A stretch of DNA of 57,177 bases. It comes from an uncultured archaeon. GTDB taxonomy: Archaea > Iainarchaeota > Iainarchaeia > Iainarchaeales > 1-14-0-10-31-34. The position numbers and the translations under genes were made by a program. The notes beneath the pieces were generated by a model that worked only from the letters and a program-made list of their open reading frames with translations, searched no databases and was not told where the DNA came from. The stretch spans positions 1 to 57,177 of the forward strand of contig CAYTYC010000006.1 of assembly GCA_964442255.1 (NCBI GenBank), given 5' to 3'. Shown here piece after piece: positions 11,707 through 44,939 of this stretch; position 1 is the stretch's first letter; each line of letters begins with the position of its first letter.

Positions 11707-11726
11707 CTTCTTTCACCCCCTTTTTT

Positions 11727-11834: not shown

Positions 11835-11840
11835 CCATTT

Positions 11841-11957: not shown

Positions 11958-11958
11958 G

Positions 11959-12063
11959 TTATCTTATCCCGCACTTAAAGCAGTAAAAAAGTGAATCACT
12001 TTCGCCTTTCTTCAGTTTTTCACCGCATTTTCTGCAGTTTCCTTTCTGTGTTTCTCCCTTCAT
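11959..12063 (-). CDS. 34-aa CxxCG..CxxCG micro zinc-finger protein
   Basis: MKGETQKGNCRKCGEKLKKGESDSLFYCFKCGIR; purine-rich RBS-like GAGGGG upstream. Confidence 0.62.
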   Translation of the reverse strand: MKGETQKGNCRKCGEKLKKGESDSLFYCFKCGIR

Positions 12064-12100
12064 TTTTATCCCCTCTCCCGCATTTTGTGCAGTAATCTCT

Positions 12101-12490
12101 TTATGCGTTTTTCTTCCCGCATTCCACGCAAACCCCTTTGTATGTAACCTCCATGGTGTCTGCCCTGAATCCTTTTTTCCTGAAGTTTTTCAAAGCATTT
12201 TTTGGAATCCGGTCGTCAAATGAATCCAGCACTTTTCCGCATTCCCTGCAAACGCAGTGCTGGTGTCCTTCGGTTTGACCGTCAAACCTGAACTCCCTGT
12301 CAACTTCAAGCCTGTTTGCGAGGCCTTTCCTGTAAAGCTTGTCAAGGTTCCTGTAAACTGTCGCAAGGGTTATGGATGGAACCTCTTTCCTTACCGCCAA
12401 GTAAACCTCCTCGGCATTCGGATGAGTCTTAACGCTTTTGAGGTAATCCATTATCTTTGCAAGCTGGATTGTGTCCCTTTGCCCGGGCAA
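12101..12490 (-). CDS. Fur/PerR-family transcriptional regulator
   Basis: HPNAEEVY, SITLATVYRNL, HQHCVCRECG, GVCVEC; TTG start inferred. Confidence 0.92.
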   Translation of the reverse strand: MPGQRDTIQLAKIMDYLKSVKTHPNAEEVYLAVRKEVPSITLATVYRNLDKLYRKGLANRLEVDREFRFDGQTEGHQHCVCRECGKVLDSFDDRIPKNALKNFRKKGFRADTMEVTYKGVCVECGKKNA

Positions 12491-12507
12491 AAGTAAGCCC
12501 CCGCCAA

Positions 12508-12547
12508 ATAAATAATCATTATCAATTAGAAACAATTATTATTTAAA
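12508..12547 (-). promoter_or_regulatory. TATA box plus Fur-box-like operator upstream of the Fur gene
   Basis: Minus-strand TTTAAATA at 12540-12547; ATAATCATTATC (12512-12523) equals the last 12 nt of the bacterial Fur consensus GATAATGATAATCATTATC. Confidence 0.6.
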
Positions 12548-12554
12548 GTTTTCG

Positions 12555-13637
12555 TTAAAGCCCTGCAAGCCCTTTGGGGGCTTTGCTTAGTCTTTTAGAG
12601 GACTTTTTTTCCACAGCAAAGCAGTCCTCTATCCTTACCCCGCCAAAGCCTTTCTTATAGTAGGCCGGTTCCAACGTAAAAACCATTCCTTTTTTGAGCT
12701 TAAACGCGCTCTTTGGCCCAAGCCTGTCTGGGAAATCATGCACTTCCATTCCCAACCCATGCCCTAAAGCATGCATCAGCCCGGAGGAAAAAAACTGTTT
12801 CATCTGCCTGTCTGCTTCATTGAAAAGAGAGCTTGCGTTTGCGCCCTGCTTCAGGTTCTTGAAAGCGTTTTCCTGTATTTCCCTTACCGCAGAATAAGCC
12901 GCAGCCTGCTTTTCGCCTGGCTTTCCAACGCAAAAGGTCCTGCTTAAGTCCGAGCAATAGTTTTCATACTTTACCCCAAAATCCACTATAAGCAGCCCGT
13001 TCCCTGAAATCTTTTTCTTTGAGGTAATGTGGTGGGGGACAGAGGCATTATTCCCGAATGCAACGATTGCAGGAAATGAAAGCCCTTCCGCGCCAAGCCT
13101 TCTTGCCATGAACTCCAGCTCCAGCGCAAGCTCTTTTTCCTTCATTCCTTTCCTGAAAAAATCCGGAATTGAATTCAGCGCCTTTTCTGTGATTTTGCAT
13201 GCCCCTTCAATTTTTTTGATTTCTTCCCTGGATTTGATTTCCCGTGCCTTTCCGAGTGCAAAGGAAATGTCCAAAATCTTTTTGCCCTTAAAGAGCTTTT
13301 TCAGGCCAGGGAAATTGCTGTGCGGGTAAACCTGAAAATTCACCCCTATTTTTTTTCCTTTAATGCATTCCTTTAATGTTTCCGAAAAGCCTTTCCGCCC
13401 TGAAACAATCCGGAGTTCAAACCAGTTCCCTTTCTTTTGCTCCTCAAGGCATGAGGCAATCACCACGGGCCTCATTTTTTTCCTTAAAACAAGGAAGCTT
13501 TCCGGAAAGCTTTCCGGGGGCAGGGAGGAAAAGTAATAAAAGTTCGGGTCCCTTGAAAAGCGGAAATTCCTTATTATTGCGCAGTCCAGGGAATTCTTTT
13601 CCAGGAAAGCCCTTATTTTCCGCTGCATGGGCATCAT
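12555..13637 (-). CDS. Xaa-Pro aminopeptidase (M24)
   Basis: DFG..YCSDLSRT, HALGHGLG.EVHD, TLEP, GGVRIED. Confidence 0.92.
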   Translation of the reverse strand: MMPMQRKIRAFLEKNSLDCAIIRNFRFSRDPNFYYFSSLPPESFPESFLVLRKKMRPVVIASCLEEQKKGNWFELRIVSGRKGFSETLKECIKGKKIGVNFQVYPHSNFPGLKKLFKGKKILDISFALGKAREIKSREEIKKIEGACKITEKALNSIPDFFRKGMKEKELALELEFMARRLGAEGLSFPAIVAFGNNASVPHHITSKKKISGNGLLIVDFGVKYENYCSDLSRTFCVGKPGEKQAAAYSAVREIQENAFKNLKQGANASSLFNEADRQMKQFFSSGLMHALGHGLGMEVHDFPDRLGPKSAFKLKKGMVFTLEPAYYKKGFGGVRIEDCFAVEKKSSKRLSKAPKGLAGL

Positions 13638-14590
13638 TTTCTTTTGATTCTTCTGAAGCCGGAGCATTCAATGAACTCAAACTTCCCTTTTTTTTCCAGC
13701 TTGTCAAGAAGCAGATTCAATCCGATTGTGTCCGATGAAATGTGCCCCGCCACAACGTAATTGAACTTGTTTTTTTCCGCCGCCTTTTTGCTGTCCTCGC
13801 TTAAATGCATTCCCACAACAGTCCCAACGCCCGCCTGCACCATTTTTTCGTAGACGTCTTTTGAAGGCTCAGTTCCGCCCGTCATTTCCACGTAAACCTT
13901 TCCGCAGCTGTTTTCCGGCGAGCCGATAAAAATTTTGGGGCCCGCGCCATGCTTCATTGCCTCCACGTATTCCGGGATTTCCTTCAATATTTTCAGGATG
14001 CCGGACACCTTTTCCGGCTTTTCTTTGTCCAAAAGCTTTTGCAGAAAGCTTTCCACGTGGTTGTCTGATGCGGTGTGGCAGCACATGTAAGGAATTCCCA
14101 AAAGCCTTGCCGCGTCCTGCGAGCGGGTGTGGTTCACTGCGCTTAAACCGCGTTCAACCTGTGAAATCCTTTCCGACATAACGCCTTCCGCAACATTAAT
14201 CGGAACCCCGAACCTGCTCATGATGTTTGCCTGCATTTTCATCACAGAGTAAAGGTTTGCCAGCGCCTTTCCTTCCGGGTGGTGCGCCAAAACCAGGTCA
14301 ATTTTTTTTCCTTTTTCCTTCAGCCTTTCCGCGAGAAGAATCTCGGAAACCTCCATGTCAATTCCGAGGAGAATGGTTTTGATTTTTTCTTTCCCTGAGC
14401 CGTTCAAAATCTGCGTGTCAGGATACGGGTTCCAGAGGCCGTCCCTGTCGAAGTCCTTTTTGTCTTTTTCCTTCAATTCATTGAATTCTTTTTTCTTTTG
14501 CGCAAGGACCTTTTTTACCTCTTTTTCGCCGCGCGGGTCGGCCTTAATCCCTTCGCCCACAAAAAATTCGTGCAACTCCTTAAGGTTCAT
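13634..14590 (-). CDS. NIF3/NGG1-interacting-factor family protein
   Basis: GID, AHHPEG, HTASDN, GHISSD.IG.N metal-binding motifs. Confidence 0.8.
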   Translation of the reverse strand: MNLKELHEFFVGEGIKADPRGEKEVKKVLAQKKKEFNELKEKDKKDFDRDGLWNPYPDTQILNGSGKEKIKTILLGIDMEVSEILLAERLKEKGKKIDLVLAHHPEGKALANLYSVMKMQANIMSRFGVPINVAEGVMSERISQVERGLSAVNHTRSQDAARLLGIPYMCCHTASDNHVESFLQKLLDKEKPEKVSGILKILKEIPEYVEAMKHGAGPKIFIGSPENSCGKVYVEMTGGTEPSKDVYEKMVQAGVGTVVGMHLSEDSKKAAEKNKFNYVVAGHISSDTIGLNLLLDKLEKKGKFEFIECSGFRRIKRK

Positions 14591-24284: not shown

Positions 24285-25811
24285 TTACTCTGGGCGTTTT
24301 TCCGGTGAAATTCGTTCAAAGGCCCACACAGGCTTTCCGCAGCTTCTTTTCCCTTCCGGGCAAAAGGGCTTAACCCCCGCCCGAAACCTTGCGCGGCAGT
24401 TTGGCCCCACAAATTCCGCGAGTTTCGGCGCCTTTTCCATTACCTGCTCCAGCTCTTCCGCCGCTGTTTCCCATATTTCCCTCTGCGAGTTAAAGCACAA
24501 ACGCATTCTCCATTTGTGCAAATAATTCAGCAAATTCCCTGACTCAATTATCCGCAGATTCAATGCATTGGGAAGCAGGTAATTTGCGTCGGCTTCCTTA
24601 ACCCCTGCCTTCAAAAGCCCGTTCCTTTTTTTCCACAACTCGTCCATCCACTTTTCGTAAACTTTAAGGCTTTCCGTGTTCCGTTTTATTAGGAATGGAG
24701 TGAAATAATCCGGCTTCTCCGAAACAGTTGCAAGAAGCAAGGGCCTTGCCGACGGCGTCATGCGGTGCCTCTGGTTCTGGCTGTCGCAGGAATGCGAAAT
24801 TTTTTTCTTGAACACAAAATTAACGCTGTTCAGCGCACGCATAAGCGGAGAAACAGTTGAAATGTTGAGTGTTTCCGAAAGCAAAGAATTCTTTTTCGGG
24901 TCCAAAACAAGTTCAATCGCTTTCCCATCTTCAAGCTCTTTTTTAGTCTTCCCGAGCACTGCCCTCACGCTGTCCCCAAAAACTTTTTCAGCATTCTGGG
25001 TAAAGGAAACAAGCAAAGATTTCCTTTCACCTAACTCTTTATCAAATTCTTCAATGAATTCCCCTGTTTTCACTTCACCAAATTCCTTTAAGGCCTTGAA
25101 TTCAGGGGTTTCCTCTAATGGAATCGGATCACCAACACCCTCAAAAAACTTTGAATCAATCTTCTTCACTTCTTCAGCCATTTTCCCTATCACTTTCTTT
25201 GCTTCCCAACCCACATCCAGCGAATTCACGCTTTTGTGCAGCCTGTAAAGCGTCAACCCGTTCACGGAATGCACAAGCGAGGTGTGCGCCGCCACAGGCA
25301 GGCAGTACCTTGCAATTTCCATTGCCTTTTTTTCCAGCTCCCTTTCCTTTTTTTTGTCGACTTCCGAGCCGGCTTTTTTCTTAAGGTCTTCCAAAAGCAT
25401 TCCAGTGAGCTTTTCATAGACTTCCCACGCTTTTGCAACAGTTTCCTCAAAAATTTTTCTTTTTTTTTCGCCCATTTCCGGAACCGCTGCGGCGGGCTCC
25501 TTTAATTTCACGTATCTCTGCGAACTTTGAGAAGAATTGTAGAACGGGTGGGAGTGCAGGAAGCTCCAGACAAACTGCCTTGAAACGTTTTCCAGGGCAA
25601 ACTCAAAGCTTGCGTGCGAGAAAACCGTGTGGTGGCCGCCTTCAAAAGTGCCTTTTCCAATCCTTTCAATTTGCTCGGCAGTAAGCCCCCCTCTTTCAGC
25701 GACTTTGGGCGAATAACAGGTTCTTGCCGCCGCAACCGCGTCCTTGTACGGCTCCTGAAACCAGTTCAAAAGCCTTGCTTTTGGCTCAGGGCTTAAAATT
25801 TTTTCCCCCAT
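24285..25811 (-). CDS. thyX: Long, two-domain FAD-dependent thymidylate synthase (ThyX-like)
   Basis: GHHTVFSH..VSR..SQRY in domain 1; QRHR and RLCFNSQREI in domain 2; next to folate genes and tmk. Confidence 0.8.
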   Translation of the reverse strand: MGEKILSPEPKARLLNWFQEPYKDAVAAARTCYSPKVAERGGLTAEQIERIGKGTFEGGHHTVFSHASFEFALENVSRQFVWSFLHSHPFYNSSQSSQRYVKLKEPAAAVPEMGEKKRKIFEETVAKAWEVYEKLTGMLLEDLKKKAGSEVDKKKERELEKKAMEIARYCLPVAAHTSLVHSVNGLTLYRLHKSVNSLDVGWEAKKVIGKMAEEVKKIDSKFFEGVGDPIPLEETPEFKALKEFGEVKTGEFIEEFDKELGERKSLLVSFTQNAEKVFGDSVRAVLGKTKKELEDGKAIELVLDPKKNSLLSETLNISTVSPLMRALNSVNFVFKKKISHSCDSQNQRHRMTPSARPLLLATVSEKPDYFTPFLIKRNTESLKVYEKWMDELWKKRNGLLKAGVKEADANYLLPNALNLRIIESGNLLNYLHKWRMRLCFNSQREIWETAAEELEQVMEKAPKLAEFVGPNCRARFRAGVKPFCPEGKRSCGKPVWAFERISPEKRPE

Positions 25812-35310: not shown

Positions 35311-35985
35311 ATGCACAAAGACATTCCAAAAATTATCCGGCTTTTGCGAAAAGAGGTTGGAAAAACAAAAGCAATTGTCCAGCATAGAACCCCATTCAAA
35401 GTGCTTGTTTCAACTGTTCTTTCAGCCCGCACCCGCGACGAAAAAACTTCCAAAGCCTCTGCACAGCTTTTCAAAAAGTATTCAAGTCCGAAAGCCCTCT
35501 CCAAAGCCCCCTTAAAAGAAATAGAAAAACTAATCAGGCCCGCGGGGTTTTACAGGGAAAAAGCCAAAAGAATTCTGCAGTTAAGCAAAGAGCTACTGGA
35601 AAGATTCAATGGAAAAGTTCCCAAAAACCCGGAGGACTTGATTTCACTTCCCGGAGTGGGAAGAAAAACAGCGAACTGCGTTCTGGTTTACGCGTTTTCC
35701 CTGCCCGCGGTTCCCGTGGATGTGCACGTCCACAGAATAAGCAACCGCATTGGATTGGTCCGCACAGGAAAACCGGAGGAAACGGAAACAGAGCTGGTTA
35801 AAATTGTCCCGAAAAAATACTGGATTGAATTAAATGAATTGATGGTTAAATTCGGGCAAAGGAAATGCAAACCCATTTCTCCAAAATGTGAACTTTGTTC
35901 ACTTCCCCCTCACTGCGATTACTTCAAAAACGTTTTCAGGAAAAATCCGTCAAAAACTTCTGCGCAGAGCCTTCCAGCGCGATGA
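35311..35985 (+). CDS. nth: Endonuclease III
   Basis: LPGVGRKTAN HhH, VDVHVHR, C-x6-C-x2-C-x5-C Fe-S motif. Confidence 0.94.
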   Translation: MHKDIPKIIRLLRKEVGKTKAIVQHRTPFKVLVSTVLSARTRDEKTSKASAQLFKKYSSPKALSKAPLKEIEKLIRPAGFYREKAKRILQLSKELLERFNGKVPKNPEDLISLPGVGRKTANCVLVYAFSLPAVPVDVHVHRISNRIGLVRTGKPEETETELVKIVPKKYWIELNELMVKFGQRKCKPISPKCELCSLPPHCDYFKNVFRKNPSKTSAQSLPAR

Positions 35986-37063
35986 AGTGCTGGAACTGCC
36001 TTCCCCTTATCCCAAATTCCTTCAATTCCCCAAGGCTCCTGAATTTGTGCCCTTCTTCGATTTTTTCCCAAACCCTTTTCGCGCTCTTTGGGCCGATGCC
36101 GGGAACAAGCAAAATCTCTTCAAAGTTTGCGTTATTCAAATCCAATGGAAACAAATCCGAGTGCAGGGCCATGTTCAGCTTGGGCTCGACGCTTAAATCC
36201 AAAAAACCGTTTTCATCAAACAAAATTTCTTTGCATTTCACTTTGTAGTCCCGCATCAAAAAATCGGTTTTGTACAAAAAATTCTGCCTTCTTAACGGTG
36301 CGGCTTCCCTTCCCTCCAGTTTTGTTCCCTGAACAGGCGAAAAAGCGGAAAAGTATCCCCTCCTTAAATCAAATTCACTGTAAAGTTTGGAGTAAAACTT
36401 CAAAATATCCTTGTCTGTTTCATCCGTTCCCCCGACAATCACCTGCGTCGTGTGCCCTGAAGGCGTCATATTCTCCCTGCCCTTTTGTTTTATCCACCGC
36501 ATTCTCCTCATCAAATCAATTTTGAAGTCCTTTGTTCCGGTTAATTCATTCAGGTAGTTTTTCTTTGGCGCCTCCAGATTAATTGAAACCCTGTCCGCAA
36601 GCCTTGTTGCTTCATCCACCTGGCTTTTGCTTGCCCCGGGCAAAACCTTCAAATGAATGTAGCCGGAAAAAAAGTGTTTCATCCTCAAAGCGCGCACAAC
36701 GTTAAGCATTTTTTCCATTGTCTTCTCCTCATCCCCGCTTAACCCGGAACTGAGGAAAAGCCCTTCCACTTGTCTTTGCGCAAGCATGTGCGTGAACACA
36801 TTCACCAGCTCATGCTCCTCAAACTCTGTTTTCCTTCCCTTTGTGCAGGCGGCTGAATTGTTGCAGTAATAGCAGTCGTTTTTGCATTCATTGGAGTAAA
36901 GGGTTTTCAGGAGGGGAATGCATTTTCCGGAGGGAAGGACCGCATGAAACACTCCGCCTAAATTAGGTAGTTTTTTGTTCAAGTCCCCTGTGCAGCTGTT
37001 CATTGAGCAGCGGTCGTATTTTCCTGCCTCTGAAAGAATCTCCAGCTTCCGGATGGAGTTCAT
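35936..37063 (-). CDS. Putative DNA modification/repair radical SAM protein with HhH
   Basis: CKNDCYYC, GYIHLK, ADRVSINLE, FSAFSP, C-terminal VPGIGPKSA; resembles TIGR03916 family. Confidence 0.85.
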   Translation of the reverse strand: MNSIRKLEILSEAGKYDRCSMNSCTGDLNKKLPNLGGVFHAVLPSGKCIPLLKTLYSNECKNDCYYCNNSAACTKGRKTEFEEHELVNVFTHMLAQRQVEGLFLSSGLSGDEEKTMEKMLNVVRALRMKHFFSGYIHLKVLPGASKSQVDEATRLADRVSINLEAPKKNYLNELTGTKDFKIDLMRRMRWIKQKGRENMTPSGHTTQVIVGGTDETDKDILKFYSKLYSEFDLRRGYFSAFSPVQGTKLEGREAAPLRRQNFLYKTDFLMRDYKVKCKEILFDENGFLDLSVEPKLNMALHSDLFPLDLNNANFEEILLVPGIGPKSAKRVWEKIEEGHKFRSLGELKEFGIRGRQFQHFIALEGSAQKFLTDFS

Positions 37064-37217: not shown

Positions 37218-37248
37218 GAATCACCGTAATTAGTGAGTGGGGGATTTT

Positions 37249-40200
37249 GTGAAAACAAGGCTTGGCCTGAGTTTGTTTTTCCTTCTTTTTTTTGCAGCTT
37301 CTGCCCTGGCAACTGAACCCGATTACCCTGAACAGGTTGTTGACGGCGGGGCAAGCTTCGATTTTCAGGGACAGACAAAGGTGAGCCTTTTTACAGGGGA
37401 TGCAGCCATGTCAATTCCCTTAACTGAACTCTCCGGAAGAAACGGCCAAACCTTTCCGCTTTCCTTGGGCTACAACAGCGATTTGCAGCCAATTGTTTCC
37501 GCGACGAACAACCGCTCACAGGCATCTGAATTCGGGCTTGGCTGGGGGCTTGGGTTGGGCGCCGTGTACTTCGACAGGAACGCCACATTCGATGATGAAA
37601 CAGATGACAGCTATTTTATTTCTTCCCCTGTAACAGGTTTCCAGGAACTGATTGAAGTTGCTCCGGATGAATTCCGCCCAAAAAACAACAGTTTCATTCG
37701 CGTGAAAAAAACCCCTGACAACTGGCTTTTGCATGCATTGGACGGAACTCAATACGAGTTCGGGCATTTGCGAATCACGGGAGACTTTGACATTGGCTGC
37801 GACCTCACAGGAACTTACAGCAACTTCCGTCAGGATGAGGAAATCGGAGCCTGTGTAGACCACAAGGACCATGTTTGCTCTGTGGAGCCTGGATGCACTG
37901 CAGGGAACTGCTACACGGTGTTTGACATTGAGTGCGTGTTAAACGACTTTCACACAAATGTTCCGGCCCAATGGGATTTAACCAAGATAACTGACAACCT
38001 TGGAAACAAAATCAACATCTCTTACAGGGACGTTATGGGGGACATGGATGTCAAATACCTTTCATATATGCAGGCAGTCCACTATGCTGTTGACACTGGC
38101 TTCCCATACCCTGACATGTGCGCTGGCTCGGCCTGCGGGGAAAAATGCAATTTTGACACAATGGTGCAGCTAACCCAGTCAATTCCTTTTACGGAAGAAA
38201 CATATATTGACCAGATAACTGATTCAACCGGAAACAGGCTGGACTTCCATTACACTTACAGAAGCGACGCGCCAAACGACTATCGCACAGGATACTATGG
38301 TTCGTGCGGAGCCAGTTACCCGTACGTCGGCTATATGCCTCCCAACCTAACCAAAGAAGACAAAATTGATTACATTGAACACTACAATTTCCTTGGGGAA
38401 CTTGTAAAAGAAATAAGCTTTGACTTTTCTTACCTGAATTCGGGGGACACGGAAAACTACCAAAAGCTTTTGCTTGATAAAATAATTGTTTCAGATGGCA
38501 CTGGAAAAATAGCCCCTGGCTCAAGGTTTGAATATGCGTTCACCTACCGCAGTGCCTCAAATTCCTGGCACGGCCACCTGAAGGATTTCACAAATCCTTT
38601 GGGGGGAAAAACCACTTTCTTCTATGTAGATAAGGCGTACCAGTTCAAGGACGAGGCTGCGGAAACAGGCTCAAAAGGCGCCAGGGTAAGCAAAATCCAG
38701 AGGGACAACGGCTTGGGGCAGGTAACGGAAACAAACTACTCCTATGAATACGGGCACTTAACTACTGAGGAGAGATTAAGCCCTCTTGTGGGATACAATA
38801 AAGTGATGGAGGTTGTTCCGGGAAACAACGGCGAAAAAGTTTACAGATTCTACAACGATTTAACCAATGCAGAATGCGGCGAATGCCCTGACCCTGCAGG
38901 GATAGCTAATTTCCATGAGCTTGACGGCCTGCTTTACCTCACCCAATCCAAGAAAGAGGACGGAACAATTTATTCCTCTTCCTCAAAGGTGTTTGAGGCA
39001 GTTGAGCTGACTCCGGGAGTGTTTGACGCCAGGCTATTGCAGCAGACTGAGGCCTTAGAAACAGTTTCCTCAATTGCGGTTTTCTCCGGCTTTGACGAAC
39101 ACAACGGTCGGCCAAGGCTTGTTTCCAGGAGAGGCGACAATGTGCCTAAATGGAGTTTAACCCAAACAGAATTCGCCCACGACTCCTATCCGGGAATGCT
39201 TTCGGATGGAATGCTTTCCCAGGTTTACAGGACAACAGTCTATGAAGACACAGACCAAAGCGGTTCCATTACAACAGGCGACAAAATGCTTTCCCGCGGC
39301 GGAAATGAGTGGGCGCAGTTTAACGGAAAATTCCTGCCCTCCAACTCATTTGAATGGCTGGACGAAGATGAAGACCAGGTGTATGATGTGCCCAGCCCCG
39401 ACAGGCTGCTTTACACAACCTACGGCTATGATTCGCACTTCAACCTTTTGCAGTCCACTGACCCAAAAGCAAAAAACACGTATTTCTTTTACGGGGACAA
39501 TGAAAACAACTGCTCTTCCTCTGCGGAAGGCCTGAACAACACGCTTTTGACCTGCGTAAGAAACCATTTGGGGCACGAAAAGCTCACCGACTATGACACC
39601 AGAACCCTTAAGCCCAACTCGTTTACCGCGGAAAACGGCGCAGTGACCTCGATGCTTTTGGACGGCTTTGGAGAGCCAAAGGCAGTTAAATTGCCTGGAG
39701 ACCACTCTTACACCCTTAAGATTGACCGCTCTGACCCGAATGTTCTGCTGAAACAGCAGGTAACGGACGGAGCCAAAGTAAAGGCTTCGGCTGAATTTTT
39801 TGACGGCTTCGGAAAAACAGTGCAAACCGCAGTTAAAGAAACAGATTCCCCTTTAAGGGCGTACCGAACTGACACATCATACAATGAAATGGGGGAAAAG
39901 GCTTATGTTTCAGAGCCCTACCGATCAACAGAAGGCATAACCGGAAACCAGCTCTTTTACGTCCTGCCCAACTCTTCCGCCCCAAAAACAGAATTCACTT
40001 ATTTCCCCGAACCAATGCAGAGGCGGCATGAAATAATTCCCGCGGGAAGTTCAGGGGAAAAAATTGTTTTCACTTACGGTGTGCAAAGCGGATTCTACAC
40101 AAAAACGATTACAAACGAAAAAAACCATTCATCCACTGTGCGCTTTGATGCCTCCGGAAACCCTGTCCAGGAAGACCTCCCTGACTCAACTTTCATACAA

Positions 40201-41763
40201 AAGGAGTACGATGCAATGGACCGCCTGATCAAAGAAAAAAACCAGTTAACCCAGGAAACAGCCTACGGCTTTGATTCGCTTGGCCGCAACACCCTGATCT
40301 CAAACCCCGAATTCGGGGCGGTTAACTTCGGTTTTGATGACGCCGGAAACCTTACCATTGAGTCGGATTCAAGGCTATACGATATCACGAGGCATTACGA
40401 CGACCTCCACCGGCTGACTGATGAAGACTACCCCGAAAGCCCTTACGTCGGGCTGGATGTGCACTACGATTACGACACCTATCCTTACCCCTGCTATGCC
40501 CCGGCAAACAACGCCACCGGGAAGCTCACCCGTGTTTCGGATTCAACAGGCGACTACTGCTTTTACTATGACGCAAGGGGAAACATTGTTGCAAAGGACT
40601 CAATTATCGACGGGGTTCACTACAGGACTTACAGCCGATTCGACAAATCCGGCGGCACAATTTCTTTCCTTAACCTTAACACAAAAACAGACTACGAATT
40701 CAATGAAGCAGGCCAGCTGGCCCTTGCCTCAAACAACCTGGTTTCAGCTTCCTACACCCACAGGGATGACGCCAAACCCGATTCAATGGCCTACGGAAAC
40801 TCCGTGGAAACGGATTACTACTTCAATGCCCGCGGAATGCTTGACGGAATTTCAACCCAAAACCTTCTTTCATTCTTCGGGCAACAGGAAAACATTAATT
40901 TCGCATATGGTTATGATTTGGCAAGAAACCTTAAAACTGAAAACGGCGGAACACATTACTACGACCCATTGAACCGCCTGGAGGAAGTTTCAACCCCGAA
41001 TGAAACATTCCTTTACGATGATTTGGGAAACTGGGAAAACAAAAACGGCTTTGAATACGAGGTTGACCCTTTAACAAACTGGATTAACAGCGTTTCAAAC
41101 TCCCAAGGAACAATAACCAAAGTATTGGGATACGATGCAGCAGGAAACATCACCTCAATTACGGGGAGAAGGGAACTTGAATTCCATCACTCTGAAACGG
41201 GAGCATTGGGTGACGGAATAATGTATCTCTGGGGGGCAAACGACCCTGTCAGCAACCAAAGCGATGTGCGGGTTGTTTTTGACGACGGAACAGACCACTT
41301 TGAATGGGAACCTGAAGTCTATGGCTGCAGCCCGTGCGGCGAACAATGCGGCTGGGGCAGAGAATGTTCGGGCGGACTCAGCCTCGATAACTCAACCGTT
41401 GTTTCAGGCTTCCCTGAACCAGGCACTTCATGGTATGACCAGCAGCATGAGGACAGGTTTTTCACTGTATTAACCCGGAATTCTGAAACCACTTCATTTG
41501 GCTTTGGCCCCGGAAACAGGCTCATGGAAGTCAACTACCAGAACGCGGAATTCCTTGAATTCGGATACAATTTTGCGGGGGAAAGGGTGTTGGAGAAAAA
41601 CTCAGTCCTTGATATTGTTTACACGACAATTTATTCAGCGGGAGTTCCGGTTTACAGGTTTGGTGAACCCGAACAGCTCGGCCCAACCTCCTCAAAAAAC
41701 CCCAAAACCAAGGGCGGAAAAATTGACAAAGACATTAAAGCGAATGAGGGGGAAAAGGCATGA
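37249..41763 (+). CDS. Secreted SpvB/TcB-like + YD/Rhs-repeat shell protein lacking the Rhs core
   Basis: Signal peptide (..FFAASALA); VSLFTG..SIPL..LSLGYNS..FGLGWGL and DGTQYEFG SpvB-like motifs; many YD-x-x-G repeats; no DPxG. Start may be 37237. Confidence 0.88.
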   Translation: MKTRLGLSLFFLLFFAASALATEPDYPEQVVDGGASFDFQGQTKVSLFTGDAAMSIPLTELSGRNGQTFPLSLGYNSDLQPIVSATNNRSQASEFGLGWGLGLGAVYFDRNATFDDETDDSYFISSPVTGFQELIEVAPDEFRPKNNSFIRVKKTPDNWLLHALDGTQYEFGHLRITGDFDIGCDLTGTYSNFRQDEEIGACVDHKDHVCSVEPGCTAGNCYTVFDIECVLNDFHTNVPAQWDLTKITDNLGNKINISYRDVMGDMDVKYLSYMQAVHYAVDTGFPYPDMCAGSACGEKCNFDTMVQLTQSIPFTEETYIDQITDSTGNRLDFHYTYRSDAPNDYRTGYYGSCGASYPYVGYMPPNLTKEDKIDYIEHYNFLGELVKEISFDFSYLNSGDTENYQKLLLDKIIVSDGTGKIAPGSRFEYAFTYRSASNSWHGHLKDFTNPLGGKTTFFYVDKAYQFKDEAAETGSKGARVSKIQRDNGLGQVTETNYSYEYGHLTTEERLSPLVGYNKVMEVVPGNNGEKVYRFYNDLTNAECGECPDPAGIANFHELDGLLYLTQSKKEDGTIYSSSSKVFEAVELTPGVFDARLLQQTEALETVSSIAVFSGFDEHNGRPRLVSRRGDNVPKWSLTQTEFAHDSYPGMLSDGMLSQVYRTTVYEDTDQSGSITTGDKMLSRGGNEWAQFNGKFLPSNSFEWLDEDEDQVYDVPSPDRLLYTTYGYDSHFNLLQSTDPKAKNTYFFYGDNENNCSSSAEGLNNTLLTCVRNHLGHEKLTDYDTRTLKPNSFTAENGAVTSMLLDGFGEPKAVKLPGDHSYTLKIDRSDPNVLLKQQVTDGAKVKASAEFFDGFGKTVQTAVKETDSPLRAYRTDTSYNEMGEKAYVSEPYRSTEGITGNQLFYVLPNSSAPKTEFTYFPEPMQRRHEIIPAGSSGEKIVFTYGVQSGFYTKTITNEKNHSSTVRFDASGNPVQEDLPDSTFIQKEYDAMDRLIKEKNQLTQETAYGFDSLGRNTLISNPEFGAVNFGFDDAGNLTIESDSRLYDITRHYDDLHRLTDEDYPESPYVGLDVHYDYDTYPYPCYAPANNATGKLTRVSDSTGDYCFYYDARGNIVAKDSIIDGVHYRTYSRFDKSGGTISFLNLNTKTDYEFNEAGQLALASNNLVSASYTHRDDAKPDSMAYGNSVETDYYFNARGMLDGISTQNLLSFFGQQENINFAYGYDLARNLKTENGGTHYYDPLNRLEEVSTPNETFLYDDLGNWENKNGFEYEVDPLTNWINSVSNSQGTITKVLGYDAAGNITSITGRRELEFHHSETGALGDGIMYLWGANDPVSNQSDVRVVFDDGTDHFEWEPEVYGCSPCGEQCGWGRECSGGLSLDNSTVVSGFPEPGTSWYDQQHEDRFFTVLTRNSETTSFGFGPGNRLMEVNYQNAEFLEFGYNFAGERVLEKNSVLDIVYTTIYSAGVPVYRFGEPEQLGPTSSKNPKTKGGKIDKDIKANEGEKA

Positions 41764-43517
41764 AAAAAGTGACTGCAGTCCTCTTCATAATGCTGCTTTC
41801 CTTTTCTCTTCTCGTGTTCAGCGCTGCGGCCAGAACAAAAGAAATTGAAATAAAGCTTGACTGTGATGACACAGACACGGGCGGCTGCGGAGGCGGCGAC
41901 GGAGGGCAGGCCGTCCCACAATGCGCTCGCTACCTGAGCCTTGACGCCCAAAGCGAATACGAACAAATACGGGTTTCGGTTTCAGGATATTCGGCTTACA
42001 TGTTTAACGAGCTTTCAATTGAAAGAAAGCCCGAGGGAGGGGGTTTCACGGAAATTGAAAGGGTTGTCGACCCTTCATCCGAAGGGCATGAATTCATTGA
42101 CTCAACCGCTGAGGGCGGAGTAACCTACACTTACCGCGCAAAATTCTTTTGCTGGCAGCAGGGGGGAAGTTTCATTGAATCGGATTACACTTCAGAGGAA
42201 AACGCTTTCACTTACTATTGCGGTGATGTTGTTTGCGGGGCTGAAGAAAACGAATACAACTGCTCCTGCGACTGCCATTACTGCGGCGACTGGGTGTGCA
42301 ATGCGGATGAGGATTCAGTGAATTGCCCGCAGGACTGCTTCACTTCAGGGGACGGGGTCTGCAACTTCAACGAAACAGTTGAATCTGCCCCAAATGACTG
42401 CGCTTACTGCGGCGACGGGGAATGCAGGGGTTCCGAGGATTCAGTGAACTGCCCAATGGATTGCGTTGTAACCTTGGTTCCGAATGGGCAGGAACTGTTT
42501 TACGGGAACAGCCGTTCGCCTTTTGCCTTAAGGGAAAACGGAAACAATTTTTACTTCCATTACGACCGTCTTGGCTCAGCGGTTGCGGCGTCAAATGATG
42601 AAGGTGAAAGGCAATGGGAGAAAAGCTATTCTGCCTTCGGTGAAAAGCTTTCAGAAAACTGGGCTTCAGGCTTCAACCAGGCGAGGAATCCGGTCGGCTT
42701 TACGGGAAACCCTGCGGACGGAATCGCATTCCTTAATTTTCGCGCAAGAGAGTATTACCCTGAACTTGGGATATTCCTGCAGTCAGACAGGGTTGTAGAC
42801 CCGTACGCTTCTTCGCATTCTTACTCATGGAACAGCCCGAAAAACTTTGTCGACCCCTTTGGGGAGGATTTTTACGCTGCTGGAACTAACGATGATGGGC
42901 AAACAGAAGTATACTTTACAATAACTTACCAACCCCATCCCAGAGATGACCCAATTCTTTACCACTATGGCAGTTCCGCAATATGGTACAAAAGCAGGTA
43001 CACCAATGAAGGGCAAATAATTTATAGCGGGAGTTCAGGCATTGACGCGGCAACCGCGGCAGCAAGGGACCGGCAACTCTTTTATGAAAATTTTGGCTCA
43101 CAGCCAGATGCAACCATTACGTCCATGCTTTTGCCTTACATTAAGCCGCAGTTCCCTGGTTTGAGTGAAAGAACAAACGCAAGCGGAATTCCGGTATTCA
43201 GGAGCTTCTCGCCTTCACATATGCTTAACTTAAAGTCTTTGGAGGAGGTTGAAGCGGAGAAGCATGCCTGGAACAAGAAGCATTTCCCTGAGATTTATCT
43301 CCCAAAAAGTGCGCCTGAACTCTTTGCAGCATACGGTCCGGCAAGCAACTACCAGGAAAGGCTGCTTTACGAAGGCTGTTCGCTTTCCCCTATAGGTGGG
43401 CCACCAAAGCTGGGCAGGATAGCCCTGGCTTTTACGCGTGTCGGTGCGCGCATGGGCCCAATTTTCAAGAGAGTATCCTTGTGGATGACCACACACCAGA
43501 TTCCCGCAATACCTTAA
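41760..43517 (+). CDS. Secreted FN3-like + Cys-rich + Rhs-core protein with unknown C-terminal tail
   Basis: Signal peptide; FIDS..YTYRAK FN3-like strand; HYDRLGS, YSAFGE, GFTG, AREYYPELGIFLQSD, NSPKNFVDPFG Rhs-associated core. Confidence 0.88.
   Translation: MKKVTAVLFIMLLSFSLLVFSAAARTKEIEIKLDCDDTDTGGCGGGDGGQAVPQCARYLSLDAQSEYEQIRVSVSGYSAYMFNELSIERKPEGGGFTEIERVVDPSSEGHEFIDSTAEGGVTYTYRAKFFCWQQGGSFIESDYTSEENAFTYYCGDVVCGAEENEYNCSCDCHYCGDWVCNADEDSVNCPQDCFTSGDGVCNFNETVESAPNDCAYCGDGECRGSEDSVNCPMDCVVTLVPNGQELFYGNSRSPFALRENGNNFYFHYDRLGSAVAASNDEGERQWEKSYSAFGEKLSENWASGFNQARNPVGFTGNPADGIAFLNFRAREYYPELGIFLQSDRVVDPYASSHSYSWNSPKNFVDPFGEDFYAAGTNDDGQTEVYFTITYQPHPRDDPILYHYGSSAIWYKSRYTNEGQIIYSGSSGIDAATAAARDRQLFYENFGSQPDATITSMLLPYIKPQFPGLSERTNASGIPVFRSFSPSHMLNLKSLEEVEAEKHAWNKKHFPEIYLPKSAPELFAAYGPASNYQERLLYEGCSLSPIGGPPKLGRIALAFTRVGARMGPIFKRVSLWMTTHQIPAIP
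42216..42464 (+). repeat. Four ~21-aa Cys-rich repeats (CGDxxC..E...NCPxDC)
   Basis: YCGDVVCGAEENEYNCSCDC, YCGDWVCNADEDSVNCPQDC, TSGDGVCNFNETVESAPNDC, YCGDGECRGSEDSVNCPMDC. Confidence 0.9.
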
Positions 43518-43582
43518 CCCATAGAAAAAGCCGTAATCAGAAACAAATTAATTAGTTTCCATAAACAATTTTTGTGGTTTTT

Positions 43583-44167
43583 ATGGGCAAAACTGCCGCA
43601 ATACTCCTTGGTGCTGCCGCCGCTTTATCGTATGGAACAGGCGCCTATATGGACCATCTTGCGGATGGAAAGAGGATTCTTCAGGCTGTTAAAAGTGACT
43701 GGAATGGGCGCCGTGAGGTAATAGCCTATGATTCGCGTAAGGAAGGCTATTATAAAGCGGAAGAACACATGCGTGAAGTGGTCCCAGACACCCTGCGCTG
43801 GGTACGGTACATACACCACAAGGCTGACAGCACTATATCGCATGATTTGACGCCCGGAGAGGTAAAAGCTGTTGAAGCCTATCTTAGGGCTTTTGAGGGG
43901 TTGAGCACTACTAAAGTTAATCGCGAAGTTCGACGCAGACTGGAGAACAGGAGATTGGGGGCTGATTTGGCTTATGTTGTTGGCACTCTTGCAGTGGGCG
44001 GGGGGATTGTTAATGCTTTGAGAGATTACTATAAGAGAAGGCCAAAGGGCTCAAGGGGCGGAGGAGGAAGGCCAATGAAGCGCCATGGAAGAGGCAGGGC
44101 AGGCATCAGGCCCAAACTATTCCCGGACAATCGCAAACCCAAAAAATACTCCCCCCAAAGAAAATAA
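43583..44167 (+). CDS. Orphan protein with N- and C-terminal hydrophobic segments (immunity-position gene)
   Basis: MGKTAAILLGAAAALSYG..LAYVVGTLAVGGGIV plus basic tail; directly after the Rhs-core gene. Confidence 0.65.
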   Translation: MGKTAAILLGAAAALSYGTGAYMDHLADGKRILQAVKSDWNGRREVIAYDSRKEGYYKAEEHMREVVPDTLRWVRYIHHKADSTISHDLTPGEVKAVEAYLRAFEGLSTTKVNREVRRRLENRRLGADLAYVVGTLAVGGGIVNALRDYYKRRPKGSRGGGGRPMKRHGRGRAGIRPKLFPDNRKPKKYSPQRK

Positions 44168-44178
44168 AGGTTTTTCCC

Positions 44179-44451
44179 ATGAAATCACTCCACTTAAAAG
44201 TCCATGGAAGGGTGCAGGGCGTTTTTTTCCGCGCATTCACGCGCGCGCACGCGGTTCAGCTCGGCTTGAAGGGTTCAGTGAAAAACCTCATTGACGGAAC
44301 AGTGGACGTGTACGCGGAAGGCGAAGAAAAAAAACTAAAAGAACTCATAGACAGGCTTTCCCGCGGCCCCCCCGGCGCAAAGGTGGAAAAAATAGGTGAA
44401 GAATGGGGAAAAGCCCAGAAACAGTACGCGGATTTTGAGGTAGAACGCTGA
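44179..44451 (+). CDS. acyP: Acylphosphatase
   Basis: GRVQGVFFR, GSVKNLIDGTV, GPPGAKV. Confidence 0.95.
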   Translation: MKSLHLKVHGRVQGVFFRAFTRAHAVQLGLKGSVKNLIDGTVDVYAEGEEKKLKELIDRLSRGPPGAKVEKIGEEWGKAQKQYADFEVER

Positions 44452-44459
44452 TTATCTGA

Positions 44460-44939
44460 TTATTCGACTTTCAGGTTAACCCTTTCCTCAAACACTCTTC
44501 CATCCAGATTAACTTCCGCAACAAAAGCGTAATCCCCTTTCGGAACGCCTGCGGCGGGGTTTGCCCGCACAACAAACTCGGTGCGCTTATAGCCGTGCTT
44601 TGCCAGCACGCCCAAATCCTTTTCAGGAGGAAAAACAATGAAGGCCCTTTCATCAACTGAATGCAGTGAAACAACGGCTTTGCTTACGTCTTCCCCGACA
44701 ATATTGAAGACGCTCACATCGGCCATTGTGCTTGAATCCTTGTTCAAAACCAACGGGTTGGAGCCAAAGGAAACAGCAAGCGCCTTGGGCGAGAAAAGGA
44801 AAAAAACCTGCACCAAAAACAGCGCCAGCACAAACAAAATGGCAAGCGCCATCAAAGGAATGTGCAGGTCAGGAATTCCCTTCACTCCCGCAAACTTAAA
44901 GGAAGGAAGCTTAATTCTTTGCTTGTCGTATATGCCCAT
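44460..44939 (-). CDS. Membrane-anchored protein with beta-sandwich-like ectodomain
   Basis: One TM helix followed by beta-rich segment ending GDYAF..LKVE. Confidence 0.7.
   Translation of the reverse strand: MGIYDKQRIKLPSFKFAGVKGIPDLHIPLMALAILFVLALFLVQVFFLFSPKALAVSFGSNPLVLNKDSSTMADVSVFNIVGEDVSKAVVSLHSVDERAFIVFPPEKDLGVLAKHGYKRTEFVVRANPAAGVPKGDYAFVAEVNLDGRVFEERVNLKVE

What the first reader, a model, noticed from the sequence alone, without database searches (positions are those of the whole stretch)
37237..44167. Split, doubly secreted Rhs toxin-like system in an archaeon
Seen: gene 1 (about 1500 aa) has a signal peptide, SpvB/TcB-like N-terminus and YD repeats but stops just before the Rhs-associated core. 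Gene 2 overlaps it by ATGA, has its own signal peptide and supplies exactly the missing core (HYDRLGS..YSAFGE..PELGIFLQSD..PKNFVDPFG) plus a 217-aa tail. Known: Rhs proteins form a shell closed by this core, whose aspartyl autoprotease releases a C-terminal toxin; Tc toxins split B/C within the shell, and orphan rhs-CT modules usually lack signal peptides. Inference: a two-chain cage with an exchangeable plug-plus-warhead subunit, Sec-exported, with no T6SS or TcA genes in this window. I do not recognise this architecture from archaea.
Basis: partly seen in the sequence, partly recalled or inferred. Interest (0 to 1): 0.88.

Follow-up and report, generated by a model that had tools for sequence, protein, structure and literature searches.

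The report
Two-gene secreted Rhs toxin cage
A small-genome archaeon encodes an Rhs-type toxin cage in two separately secreted proteins, a large shell and a small piece carrying the closing plug and a unique tail, which is a rare, conserved variant of a known bacterial toxin design.

Summary
Gene 1 (37237-41763, 1508 aa) has a signal peptide and YD/RHS repeats but no Rhs core. Gene 2 (41760-43517, 585 aa) overlaps it by ATGA.

The split is not an artefact. An independent assembly spans the junction with no differences. The same shell / signal-peptide-core-tail pair occurs in two other genera of the family (a relative is labelled Candidatus Diapherotrites), probably in a fourth metagenome contig, and in two bacterial-looking contigs.

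The autoprotease motif is intact (D343, D365, PxxxxDPxG). A complex model docks gene 2's core onto gene 1's shell (ipSAE 0.84, best control 0.00), but likeness to solved one-chain Rhs proteins may explain that pass.

Best reading: a Sec-exported, two-chain Rhs polymorphic toxin, closest to the Tc toxin TcB-TcC cocoon. It is cut about 125 residues before the cleavage site, and no PAAR was found in this 93.8%-complete genome; the TcA search was uninformative.

Toxicity, target, delivery and immunity are untested. It is a new variant of a known kind.

The parts
37237..41763 (+). Gene 1: shell subunit, 1508 aa (P0001). YD/RHS-repeat protein without an Rhs core. The true start may be the GTG at 37249.
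   Evidence: ORF. PF05593 1e-14 and TIGR01643 4.4e-8, with no core hit. 25-26% identical along its length to the shells P0006 and P0007 of two related genera. Start region read.
37237..37314 (+). Signal-peptide-like N-terminus of gene 1 (residues 1-26, ...KTRLGLSLFFLLFFAASALA|TE).
   Evidence: Read directly from the translation. No predictor was run.
37393..37569 (+). Weak SpvB-like N-terminal motif (residues 53-111; GD..SIPL...GRNG...LGW).
   Evidence: PF03534 E=0.033, 13.9 bits against a cut-off of 22. The motif is invariant in the three archaeal shells. tblastn matched it to N-termini of bacterial Rhs-like genes.
39757..39960 (+). DUF6443-like segment (residues 841-908), below threshold here.
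   Evidence: PF20041 E=8.2e-4, 20 bits against a cut-off of 27.8 in P0001. The same family is at or over threshold in P0006 and P0007.
39934..41661 (+). YD-repeat shell region of gene 1 (about residues 900-1475). Residues ~1306-1420 are not in the modelled interface and may be an outward excursion.
   Evidence: RHS and YD hits at residues 970-1000 and 1092-1124. Interface residues 987-1305 and 1421-1476 in the complex model. The excursion is an inference.
41662..41760 (+). Lys-rich, low-complexity C-terminal tail of gene 1 (residues 1476-1508).
   Evidence: Read. Absent from the aligned relatives.
41760..41763 (+). ATGA overlap: the start of gene 2 and the stop of gene 1. A purine-rich GAGGGGG lies 7-13 nt upstream.
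   Evidence: A ribosome-binding role is an inference.
41760..43517 (+). Gene 2: plug-and-tail subunit, 585 aa (P0002).
   Evidence: TIGR03696 41 bits against a cut-off of 32.5. It is the only Rhs core in the genome.
41760..41831 (+). Signal-peptide-like N-terminus of gene 2 (residues 1-24, MKKVTAVLFIMLLSFSLLVFSAAA|R).
   Evidence: Read. AlphaFold2 models residues 2-23 as a confident helix. No predictor was run.
41832..42485 (+). Non-Rhs N-terminal module of gene 2 (residues 25-242): a beta-rich part followed by four Cys-rich ~21-aa repeats (about residues 153-235, nt 42216-42464).
   Evidence: Read. The repeat part matches open frames in related genomes: most matches, in which 23 of 61 genomes matched. 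No Pfam or NCBIfam family at E<=0.1. The fold was not resolved.
42486..42863 (+). Last shell strands plus the Rhs-associated core (residues 243-368). Includes R330, D343, D365 and P360xxxxD365PxG368. The TIGR03696 match is nt 42627-42863.
   Evidence: Aligns to the last ~115 residues of the solved Rhs chains 8qja_A and 8h8a_A. The residues are invariant in 42 sequences. The motif and the 22-residue spacing of the two aspartates are as in RhsA (passages of PMC8765631). Docks on gene 1 in the model.
42864..43514 (+). 217-aa C-terminal tail (residues 369-585): presumed toxin or cargo, with no detectable relatives.
   Evidence: phmmer against 1.84 billion representatives found only itself and one spurious 38-residue match. 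No Pfam hit. AlphaFold2 pLDDT below 50. Best Atlas score 0.83, a lead only.
43574..44167 (+). Gene 3, 197 aa (P0003; the likelier start is the ATG at 43583). Two hydrophobic segments and an Arg/Lys-rich tail. A candidate immunity or accessory protein, unproven.
   Evidence: No family hit. No Atlas hit. No significant similarity to the ORFs downstream of the relatives' core genes.

Best explanation
The locus encodes an Rhs/YD-repeat polymorphic toxin whose cage is made from two separately translated and separately Sec-exported chains.

The two chains. Chain A (gene 1) is the bulk of the YD shell. Chain B (gene 2) carries an outward-facing Cys-rich module, the last shell strands, the inward-spiralling core that plugs the cage and acts as an aspartyl autoprotease, and a lineage-specific 217-aa tail.

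Proposed sequence of events. Translation of the two genes is coupled through the ATGA overlap. Both chains cross the membrane unfolded and lose their signal peptides. Chain B's first strands then add onto the free edge of chain A's beta-spiral, and the core closes the cage around the tail. The core cuts at or just after G368/E369, leaving the tail free inside until it reaches a target cell.

What is shown: the gene structure, the domain content, the conservation of the split and the intact autoprotease motif.

What is supported only by a model: docking of chain B onto chain A.

What is inferred: Sec export, assembly outside the cell, encapsulation, toxicity of the tail, the target (a host or a competitor of this small-genome archaeon) and an immunity role for gene 3.
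For: 1. Domain split. Gene 1 has RHS/YD repeats but no core. Gene 2 has the core at 41 bits against a 32.5 cut-off. It is the only core in the genome, and gene 1 is the only RHS-repeat gene.

2. The same break point in relatives. G003:C14 has a 2091-aa shell plus a 426-aa core protein. G002:C1 has a 1784-aa shell plus a 380-aa core protein. These are three genera of one family. Every small protein starts with a hydrophobic signal-like segment ending in AxA or VNA, followed within a few residues by the final YD strands.

3. Further instances.
- P0149 is 81% identical to P0007, is 1770 aa long and has no core.
- Contig L096 carries a Secretin gene and has a 1308-aa signal-peptide shell followed after 11 nt by a 278-aa signal-peptide core protein.
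- Contig L100 has a signal-peptide + SpvB (1.9e-19) + TcdB_midN (1.3e-9) + RHS shell, then a 144-aa ORF, then a 404-aa signal-peptide YD-core-tail protein.

4. Archaeal setting.
- The window carries Trm5/TYW2, DUF63 and a tetrapyrrole-methylase-family gene (TP_methylase) that I take by recall to be diphthine synthase.
- The relatives' loci carry eIF-6 and FBPase class V.
- P0005 is named Candidatus Diapherotrites archaeon by its source.
- The GC content of each pair matches its own contig.

5. The junction is sound. A 4081-bp contig from an independent assembler covers 40562-44600 with 0 differences and 0 gaps. No indels or joints were listed in either run.

6. Gene 2 supplies the shell's end. 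P0005 residues 24-146 match positions 767-892 of the 909-position TEN_YD-shell model. P0002 residues 250-368 align to the C-terminal ~115 residues of the solved Rhs chains 8qja_A and 8h8a_A, up to the ends of those chains.

7. The protease motif is intact. R330, D343 and D365 are invariant in 42 sequences. The pattern P360xxxxD365PxG368 and the D-D spacing of 22 match RhsA D1324/D1346, where either D-to-N change abolishes cleavage (passages of PMC8765631).

8. Complex model of P0001 620-1480 with P0002 243-372.
- ipSAE was 0.84 in all three runs, and the best of 3 controls scored 0.00.
- The mark was reached by 116 of 157 solved complexes and by 2 of 215 mismatched pairs in the tool's calibration.
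- The runs agree in at least 90% of contacts, and the partner's pLDDT was 75-78.
- Contacts include gene 1's last residues 1469-1476 against gene 2's first modelled residues 243-250.

9. Polymorphic-toxin behaviour. P0005 and P0008 are near-identical up to DPSGNAE and unalignable after it. The three archaeal tails are unrelated to one another.

10. A signal peptide on the core protein is a heritable trait. On a tree of 122 core regions the label needs 11 changes, against a shuffled mean of 27. None of 500 shuffles was as low.
Against: - The docking pass may reflect likeness to solved one-chain Rhs and Tc BC structures, as the tool itself warns. Only 861 of gene 1's 1508 residues were modelled, and the tail was left out.
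- The alignment behind chain 1 had only 3 rows.
- Many short signal-peptide core-tail genes have no shell gene next to them. I picked 10 such genes from the 73 metagenome loci, using a crude hydrophobicity cut-off and requiring at least 2 kb of upstream DNA. Only 2 (L096, L100) have a clear YD shell directly upstream. One (L099) has a truncated YD frame two genes away, and one (L046) has a large YD frame downstream.
- How a tail could be enclosed when both chains fold outside the cell is unexplained.
- The residue after G368 is E, not the W/L/F of the published consensus.
- The tail has no relatives and no confident fold, so toxicity is only an analogy.
- No conserved immunity-like gene was found. 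In the two relatives the downstream ORF is on the opposite strand and is unrelated.
- P0002's core sits on a very long branch (2.5 changes per column) and scores lower than the relatives' cores (44 against 87-92 bits).
- The system is patchy: the shell was found in 3 of 9 genomes of the family.
Confidence: 0.6

Rival explanations
1. Gene 2 works alone. It would be a small secreted pro-toxin in which the Rhs core is only a self-cleaving release module behind a Cys-rich surface-binding module. Gene 1 would be a separate YD-repeat surface or adhesion protein that happens to sit in the same operon.
For: - Short signal-peptide core-tail proteins are common: 28 of the 120 best short relatives of P0005, by my hydrophobicity cut-off.
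- Most of those with context have no adjacent shell: 2 clear cases among the 10 I examined.
- Gene 2 has its own 215-aa outward module.
Against: - Every archaeal locus with context has a core-less shell directly upstream: 3 of 3.
- Gene 1 ends, and gene 2's Rhs part begins, at the matching point of one continuous shell.
- The model docks them with chain ends adjacent.
- On its own the core region of P0002 folds with low confidence: residues 290-370 have pLDDT mostly 45-66. This is a weak argument.
- A shell gene could lie elsewhere in the genomes that have lone genes.
Confidence: 0.2
2. The pair forms a cage-like surface scaffold that is not a toxin. As in teneurins, the shell would serve adhesion to a host cell and the tail would be a binding or structural piece.
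For: - Teneurin YD shells are empty scaffolds whose plug is not cleaved (passage of PMC8765631).
- The archaeal shells carry adhesion-type extras: LamG x2 in P0006, a dockerin in P0007 and Cys-rich repeats in P0002.
- The tail has no toxin family.
- No immunity gene was identified.
Against: - The autoprotease residues that teneurins lack are all kept.
- Tails are swapped between close relatives right after the cleavage motif, as in polymorphic toxins.
- P0005's tail carries an HExxH string (read; no family hit).
Confidence: 0.12
3. Artefact or decay: a frameshifted, misassembled or misbinned single Rhs gene.
For: - Rhs genes are repeat-rich and often break assemblies. Two cores in related genomes sit at contig ends.
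- More distant relatives are single-chain: 38 of 60 P0007 hits have a fused core.
Against: - Gene 2 begins with a start codon, a signal peptide and 215 residues of non-Rhs sequence, which a frameshift cannot create.
- An independent assembly spans the junction with no differences.
- The same split occurs in other genera with intact frames.
- The 57-kb contig carries archaeal housekeeping genes on both sides, and the GC content of the pair matches it.
Confidence: 0.03

Closest known systems
Tc (ABC) toxin BC sub-complex: TcB plus TcC
   Same: Two separately encoded chains build one YD-repeat cocoon. The second chain ends in the aspartyl-autoprotease core followed by a hypervariable tail that is cleaved and held inside (passages of PMC8765631). 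Gene 1 has a weak SpvB-like N-terminus, and the related contig L100 has clear SpvB and TcdB_midN domains.
   Different: - The cut lies only about 125 residues before the cleavage site, so chain B is a minimal TcC. TcC itself is ~100 kDa.
- Both chains here carry signal peptides. The abstract of PMC10847048 says Yersinia entomophaga Tc toxin is released by T10SS-dependent lysis. That Tc subunits lack signal peptides is recalled.
- No TcA was found (controls silent).
- No FG-GAP propeller was detected in gene 1.
- The host is an archaeon.
Single-chain Sec-dependent Rhs polymorphic toxins of the 'TcdB/TcaC' type (Zhang et al. 2012, PMC3482391)
   Same: A signal peptide, an SpvB-type N-terminus, RHS repeats and a variable C-terminal toxin. 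The class is listed for Euryarchaeota as well, and Methanosarcina acetivorans has classical RHS toxins (passages read).
   Different: Those are one polypeptide of about 2200 aa with an integrin-like propeller. Here the chain is broken before the core, the second piece has its own signal peptide, and no propeller was detected.
T6SS Rhs effectors such as RhsA of Pseudomonas protegens (PMC8765631) and the solved chains 8qja and 8h8a
   Same: The same C-terminal core and PxxxxDPxG motif with two catalytic aspartates 22 residues apart.
   Different: Those are single chains mounted on VgrG through PAAR, with no signal peptide. No PAAR was found in this genome.
Orphan rhs-CT modules downstream of full-length rhs genes
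   Same: Short genes holding a core fragment plus a variable tail. An example array is seen in G002:C7.
   Different: Orphans lack a start with a signal peptide and are thought to be recombination spares. Gene 2 and its kin are complete secreted proteins sitting behind a shell that lacks any core of its own.

Membership tests
Rhs / YD-repeat polymorphic toxin | Array of YD/RHS repeats that forms the shell | tested here: met
   PF05593 1e-14 and TIGR01643 4.4e-8 in gene 1.
Rhs / YD-repeat polymorphic toxin | Rhs-associated core (TIGR03696) at the end of the shell | tested here: met
   41 bits against a cut-off of 32.5, at residues 290-368 of gene 2 and not in gene 1. 44.4 bits in the genome scan.
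Rhs / YD-repeat polymorphic toxin | PxxxxDPxG motif and two catalytic aspartates of the autoprotease | tested here: met
   P360xxxxD365PxG368. D343 and D365 are 22 residues apart, as in RhsA D1324/D1346, and are invariant in 42 sequences. The residue after G is E, not W/L/F. Cleavage itself was not tested.
Rhs / YD-repeat polymorphic toxin | Shell, core and toxin on one polypeptide | tested here: not met
   A stop codon and a new start with a signal peptide lie between the shell and the core. The break is conserved in relatives.
Rhs / YD-repeat polymorphic toxin | Variable C-terminal domain directly after the cleavage motif | tested here: met
   The tails of P0002, P0004, P0005 and P0008 are mutually unalignable. 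P0002's tail has no relatives.
Rhs / YD-repeat polymorphic toxin | Cognate immunity gene next to the toxin | tested here: inconclusive
   Gene 3 follows on the same strand but has no family and no relatives. The relatives' downstream ORFs are on the opposite strand and unrelated.
Tc toxin BC cocoon | Two separately encoded chains that together make one shell | tested here: met
   Gene 1 lacks the last shell positions and gene 2 supplies them: TEN_YD-shell positions 767-892 of 909 in P0005, and the PDB alignment. Docking was modelled at ipSAE 0.84 against a best control of 0.00. This is a model only and may reflect likeness to solved structures.
Tc toxin BC cocoon | SpvB N-terminal domain in the B chain | tested here: inconclusive
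   PF03534 E=0.033, 13.9 bits against a cut-off of 22. hhalign to an SpvB-bearing relative was not significant. The AlphaFold2 model of residues 1-700 was unusable, pLDDT 30.
Tc toxin BC cocoon | FG-GAP beta-propeller that docks on TcA | tested here: not met
   No FG-GAP or TcdB_mid family in P0001, P0006 or P0007 at the thresholds used. No structure was available to rule out a divergent propeller.
Tc toxin BC cocoon | TcA translocator partner | tested here: inconclusive
   PF18276 and PF03538 found nothing in the 93.8%-complete genome, but the control genomes were silent too.
T6SS Rhs effector | PAAR/VgrG mounting domain | tested here: not met
   No PAAR in the genome, with controls ringing in 3 genomes. 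None in gene 1.

The most novel reading that the evidence does not exclude
Signal-peptide core-tail proteins may be the swappable 'cartridge' of a toxin or effector cage that is assembled outside the cell. The cage would be built after Sec export from a shell subunit and a plug subunit. Ultra-small, single-membrane episymbionts (DPANN archaea and CPR bacteria) would use it to act on host or rival cells without a T6SS, a TcA or any injection machine. Among the 120 best short relatives, the six signal-peptide-bearing ones that carry an organism name all come from such lineages: Diapherotrites, Aenigmatarchaeota, Altiarchaeota, Patescibacteria (two) and Peregrinibacteria. None of the ten named ones without a signal peptide does. 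This would be a delivery route of its own kind rather than a broken Rhs gene.
Probability: 0.25. Interest if true: 0.85.

Novelty: new variant of a known kind. Interest (0 to 1): 0.62.

Why it matters
Rhs and Tc cages are thought to fold around their cargo inside the producing cell. A cage whose two halves each cross the membrane unfolded would have to assemble and load its cargo outside the cell. If confirmed, that changes how encapsulation is thought to work.

It would also give DPANN archaea a concrete candidate weapon or host-interaction factor. Their means of acting on hosts and rivals are almost unknown. My searches of the held library for Rhs with DPANN or Diapherotrites found nothing relevant.

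The recurrence of signal-peptide core-tail genes in CPR and DPANN metagenome proteins suggests a wider class that has not been catalogued.

Tried and rejected
- AlphaFold2 of whole gene 2 with a 42-row alignment gave mean pLDDT 49.2. Only the signal helix and residues ~235-290 were confident, so no fold search of the tail was run.
- AlphaFold2 of gene 1 residues 1-700 with 3 rows gave pLDDT 30 and was unusable.
- hhalign of the N-terminal alignment against the SpvB/FG-GAP/TcdB_mid protein P0130 was not significant.
- phmmer of P0001 against PDB sequences found no hit at 0.001.
- The tail against 1.84 billion representatives found nothing real. Its best Atlas score was 0.83, with toxin-family rows at 0.76-0.79, which are leads only.
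- The Atlas gave no usable hit for gene 3.
- Pairwise comparison of the three downstream ORFs found no similarity.
- In the sequencing-run search, no RNA holder was listed.
- The shell alignment against genome contigs found only one archaeal locus, the one already known. The rest were bacterial N-terminal matches.
- TcA family searches were uninformative because the controls were silent.
- Literature. Makarova et al. 2019 (mBio, archaeal polymorphic toxins) is not held. I know it only from citing sentences, and it may already list archaeal Rhs loci of this sort. My searches turned up no description of a split Rhs with two signal peptides. That is not proof that none exists. No supplements were read.
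- I considered and rejected programmed frameshifting or read-through across the junction, because gene 2 has its own signal peptide and 215 non-Rhs residues.


Full report
WHAT IS THERE

The window is contig C6 of a 1.28-Mb genome in 51 contigs, 93.8% complete. Housekeeping genes surround the locus. They include purS/purL/purQ-type genes, a Trm5/TYW2 methyltransferase, DUF63 and a tetrapyrrole-methylase-family gene (TP_methylase) that I take by recall to be diphthine synthase. That mix fits an archaeon. A protein of a same-family genome (G002) is named 'Candidatus Diapherotrites archaeon' by its source.

Gene 1 (37237-41763, 1508 aa)
- It starts with a signal-peptide-like segment. A GTG at 37249 would give MKTRLGLSLFFLLFFAASALA|TE.
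- It scores RHS_repeat at 1e-14 and YD_repeat at 4.4e-8.
- It has only sub-threshold SpvB (E=0.033) and DUF6443 (E=8.2e-4) matches.
- It has no Rhs-associated core.
- It ends in a Lys-rich low-complexity tail.

Gene 2 (41760-43517, 585 aa)
- It overlaps gene 1 in ATGA.
- It begins MKKVTAVLFIMLLSFSLLVFSAAA|RT.
The repeat part matches open frames in many related genomes. Most matches, in which 23 of 61 genomes matched, fall on residues ~150-240.
- From about residue 243 come the last YD strands.
- The Rhs core follows (TIGR03696, residues 290-368, 41 bits against a cut-off of 32.5).
- After PKNFVDPFG comes a 217-residue tail.

Gene 3 (43574-44167) follows on the same strand and has no recognisable family.

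IS THE SPLIT REAL?

Three lines of evidence say it is.

1. A frameshift cannot create a start codon, a signal peptide and 215 residues of unrelated sequence.

2. A 4081-bp contig made by a different assembler from a public run of a microbial-mat metagenome covers 40562-44600 with no differences or gaps. A second sample of the same study also covers the junction bins, with no listed differences there. The first run may be the sample of origin, so this checks the assembly and is not independent biology.

3. The split is conserved.
- The Rhs core is rare in this lineage: 5 of 196 genomes of the order, and 6 of 215 of the phylum, 5 of them over the cut-off. Every match lies on a short open frame of 148-705 aa.
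- In the two related genera with long contigs, a large core-less YD protein (2091 aa in G003, 1784 aa in G002) is followed at once by a small protein (426 and 380 aa). That small protein reads signal peptide, last YD strands, core, unrelated tail.
- A fourth case is likely. P0149 is 81% identical to the G002 shell and has no core. P0008 is 91% identical to the G002 small protein over the core. Both report the same 178,070-bp contig length. Adjacency of the two was not seen.
- The GC content of each pair matches its own contig.
- In G000 and G003 the pair lies next to the same radical-SAM/HhH gene (40% identity), but at opposite ends of the pair.
- The shell was found in only 3 of the 9 genomes of the family.

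THE ARCHITECTURE IS NOT CONFINED TO ARCHAEA

A scan of JGI metagenome contigs with the small-protein alignment returned 73 loci. Two of them show the same design.
- L096 carries a Secretin gene and an IS200-like transposase, so it is bacterial. It has a 1308-aa signal-peptide shell with bacterial TSP3 repeats at its end. Eleven bases later comes a 278-aa signal-peptide core-tail protein.
- L100 has a signal-peptide shell with clear SpvB (1.9e-19) and TcdB_midN (1.3e-9) domains. Next comes a 144-aa signal-peptide ORF with a weak FG-GAP match, then a 404-aa signal-peptide YD-core-tail protein.

More distant relatives of the shell are ordinary single chains. Of the 60 hits to P0007, 38 have a fused core. 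The other 22 have none, and many of those may be fragments.

SHORT SIGNAL-PEPTIDE CORE-TAIL PROTEINS AS A CLASS

Among the 120 best short (209-665 aa) relatives of P0005, 28 have a hydrophobic N-terminal segment by a crude Kyte-Doolittle cut-off and 92 do not. On a tree of 122 core regions this trait clusters. It needs 11 changes against a shuffled mean of 27, and none of 500 shuffles was as low. Kin share labels and the alignment has only 127 columns, so the test shows only that the trait is inherited within lineages.

The six signal-peptide-bearing proteins that carry an organism name come from Diapherotrites, Aenigmatarchaeota, Altiarchaeota, Patescibacteria (two) and Peregrinibacteria. The ten named ones without a signal peptide come from other groups. 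These numbers are small, and the search is biased towards relatives of the query.

The picture also cuts against a simple two-chain story. I picked 10 signal-peptide-type short core genes from the 73 loci, using the same crude cut-off and requiring at least 2 kb upstream. Only L096 and L100 have a clear shell directly upstream. L099 has a truncated YD frame two genes away, and L046 has a large YD frame downstream. The other six (L059, L061, L088, L090, L102, L106) show no core-less shell beside the gene; the YD frame upstream in L088 holds a core of its own.

DOES GENE 2 COMPLETE GENE 1'S SHELL?

- P0005 residues 24-146 match positions 767-892 of the 909-position teneurin YD-shell model.
- P0002 residues 250-368 align to the last ~115 residues of the solved Rhs chains 8qja_A and 8h8a_A, up to the ends of those chains.
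- The published consensus PxxxxDPxG(W/L/F) and two catalytic aspartates 22 residues apart (RhsA D1324 and D1346, each needed for cleavage) come from passages of PMC8765631. P0002 has P360xxxxD365PxG368 and D343.
- R330, D343 and D365 are invariant in a 42-sequence alignment. The residue after G368 is E rather than W/L/F.
- A complex model of gene 1 residues 620-1480 with gene 2 residues 243-372 scored ipSAE 0.84 in all three runs. The best of 3 controls scored 0.00, the runs agreed in at least 90% of contacts, and the partner's pLDDT was 75-78.
- In the tool's calibration that mark was reached by 116 of 157 solved complexes and by 2 of 215 mismatched pairs.
- The interface uses gene 1 residues 987-1305 and 1421-1476. 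Gene 1's last residues touch gene 2's first modelled residues, as expected if one spiral had simply been cut.
- The tool warns that halves of a family with solved one-chain structures can pass from memory. The result therefore shows likeness and does not prove binding. The tail and 647 residues of gene 1 were outside the model.

THE TAIL AND GENE 3

The 217-aa tail has no relative among 1.84 billion representatives. The only other hit is a spurious 38-residue match to a repeat protein. It has no family and no confident fold, and it has only sub-threshold language-model look-alikes, a few of which are polymorphic-toxin C-terminal families.

Between close relatives, the sequence is near-identical up to DPSGNAE and unalignable after it (P0005 against P0008). 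That is the signature of polymorphic-toxin tail replacement. P0005's tail contains an HExxH string (read, no family hit).

Gene 3 has two hydrophobic segments and a basic tail. It has no relatives. The ORFs downstream of the two related pairs are on the opposite strand and are unrelated. An immunity role is only a guess.

HOW IT MOST LIKELY WORKS

- Shown: two coupled genes, each with a secretory-type N-terminus. Together they hold exactly the parts of one Rhs protein, with an intact autoprotease motif, and the arrangement is conserved across genera.
- Supported by a model only: the small chain docks on the large one.
- Inferred: both chains are exported unfolded through Sec. They assemble outside the single membrane, the core plugs the cage and cuts off the tail, and the tail is delivered to another cell.

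The extras on the shells would then sit on the outside of the cage at the new chain ends, where they could bind surfaces. These are the Cys-rich repeats here, two LamG domains in G003, a dockerin in G002 and TSP3 repeats in L096. How the tail gets inside a cage that forms outside the cell, and how it enters a target without TcA, is open. No PAAR was found, and the TcA searches were uninformative.

COMPARISON AND NOVELTY

The nearest known system is the TcB-TcC cocoon of Tc toxins, in which two chains form one shell and the second chain carries the autoprotease and a hypervariable tail (passages of PMC8765631). The nearest in gene content is the single-chain, signal-peptide 'TcdB/TcaC'-type RHS toxin of Zhang et al. 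2012. That paper also records classical RHS toxins in Methanosarcina acetivorans (passages of PMC3482391).

This locus differs in four ways:
- where the chain is cut, about 125 residues before the cleavage site;
- in having a signal peptide on each chain;
- in lacking a detectable propeller, TcA or PAAR;
- in its host lineage.

My literature searches found no description of this arrangement. The main survey of archaeal polymorphic toxins (Makarova et al. 2019) could not be read. I rate the locus a new variant of a known kind, of moderate to high interest.

Noticed in passing
L016 (G002:C7:1-7992): An array of six Rhs core-tail modules without signal peptides, interleaved with small ORFs and a TPR protein. 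It resembles a bacterial orphan rhs-CT/immunity array. Its GC is 0.441 against 0.386 for the main contig stretch of G002, so it may be misbinned.
   Followed up: partly
window 42216-42464 (gene 2 residues ~153-235): Four copies of a Cys-rich ~21-aa repeat (CGDG.C...E....C..DC type) with no Pfam or NCBIfam family. Similar repeats occur in open frames of many related genomes, sometimes in several proteins per genome.
   Followed up: partly
L015 (G002:C1) 3754-14027: In G002 the Rhs pair sits between the genes for SRP54 (Ffh) and an SRP54-type GTPase resembling the SRP receptor FtsY. These are the two parts of the co-translational targeting route to Sec.
   Followed up: no
window 35936-37063 and L014 2987-4108: The same radical-SAM/helix-hairpin-helix gene (40% identity) lies next to the Rhs pair in G000 and G003. 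It is beside the shell start in one and beside the core-gene end in the other. This suggests a local inversion or a shared insertion site.
   Followed up: partly
L100 8273-8707: A 144-aa signal-peptide ORF with a weak FG-GAP-like match lies between the shell gene and the core-tail gene. It may be a third small subunit.
   Followed up: no
L015 6182-7324 (P0005 tail): The tail of the G002 small protein contains an HEYAH (HExxH) string, which hints at a metallopeptidase-type toxin. No family hit supports it.
   Followed up: no
window 24285-25811: A 508-aa protein with two matched stretches of the ThyX (Thy1) family, which looks like a tandem-duplicated thymidylate synthase.
   Followed up: no
L018 (G004:C24) and L019 (G158:C153): Two further Rhs cores in related genomes sit at the very start of short contigs (2.6 and 2.1 kb), so their upstream partners are unassembled. 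L018 has GC 0.524.
   Followed up: no
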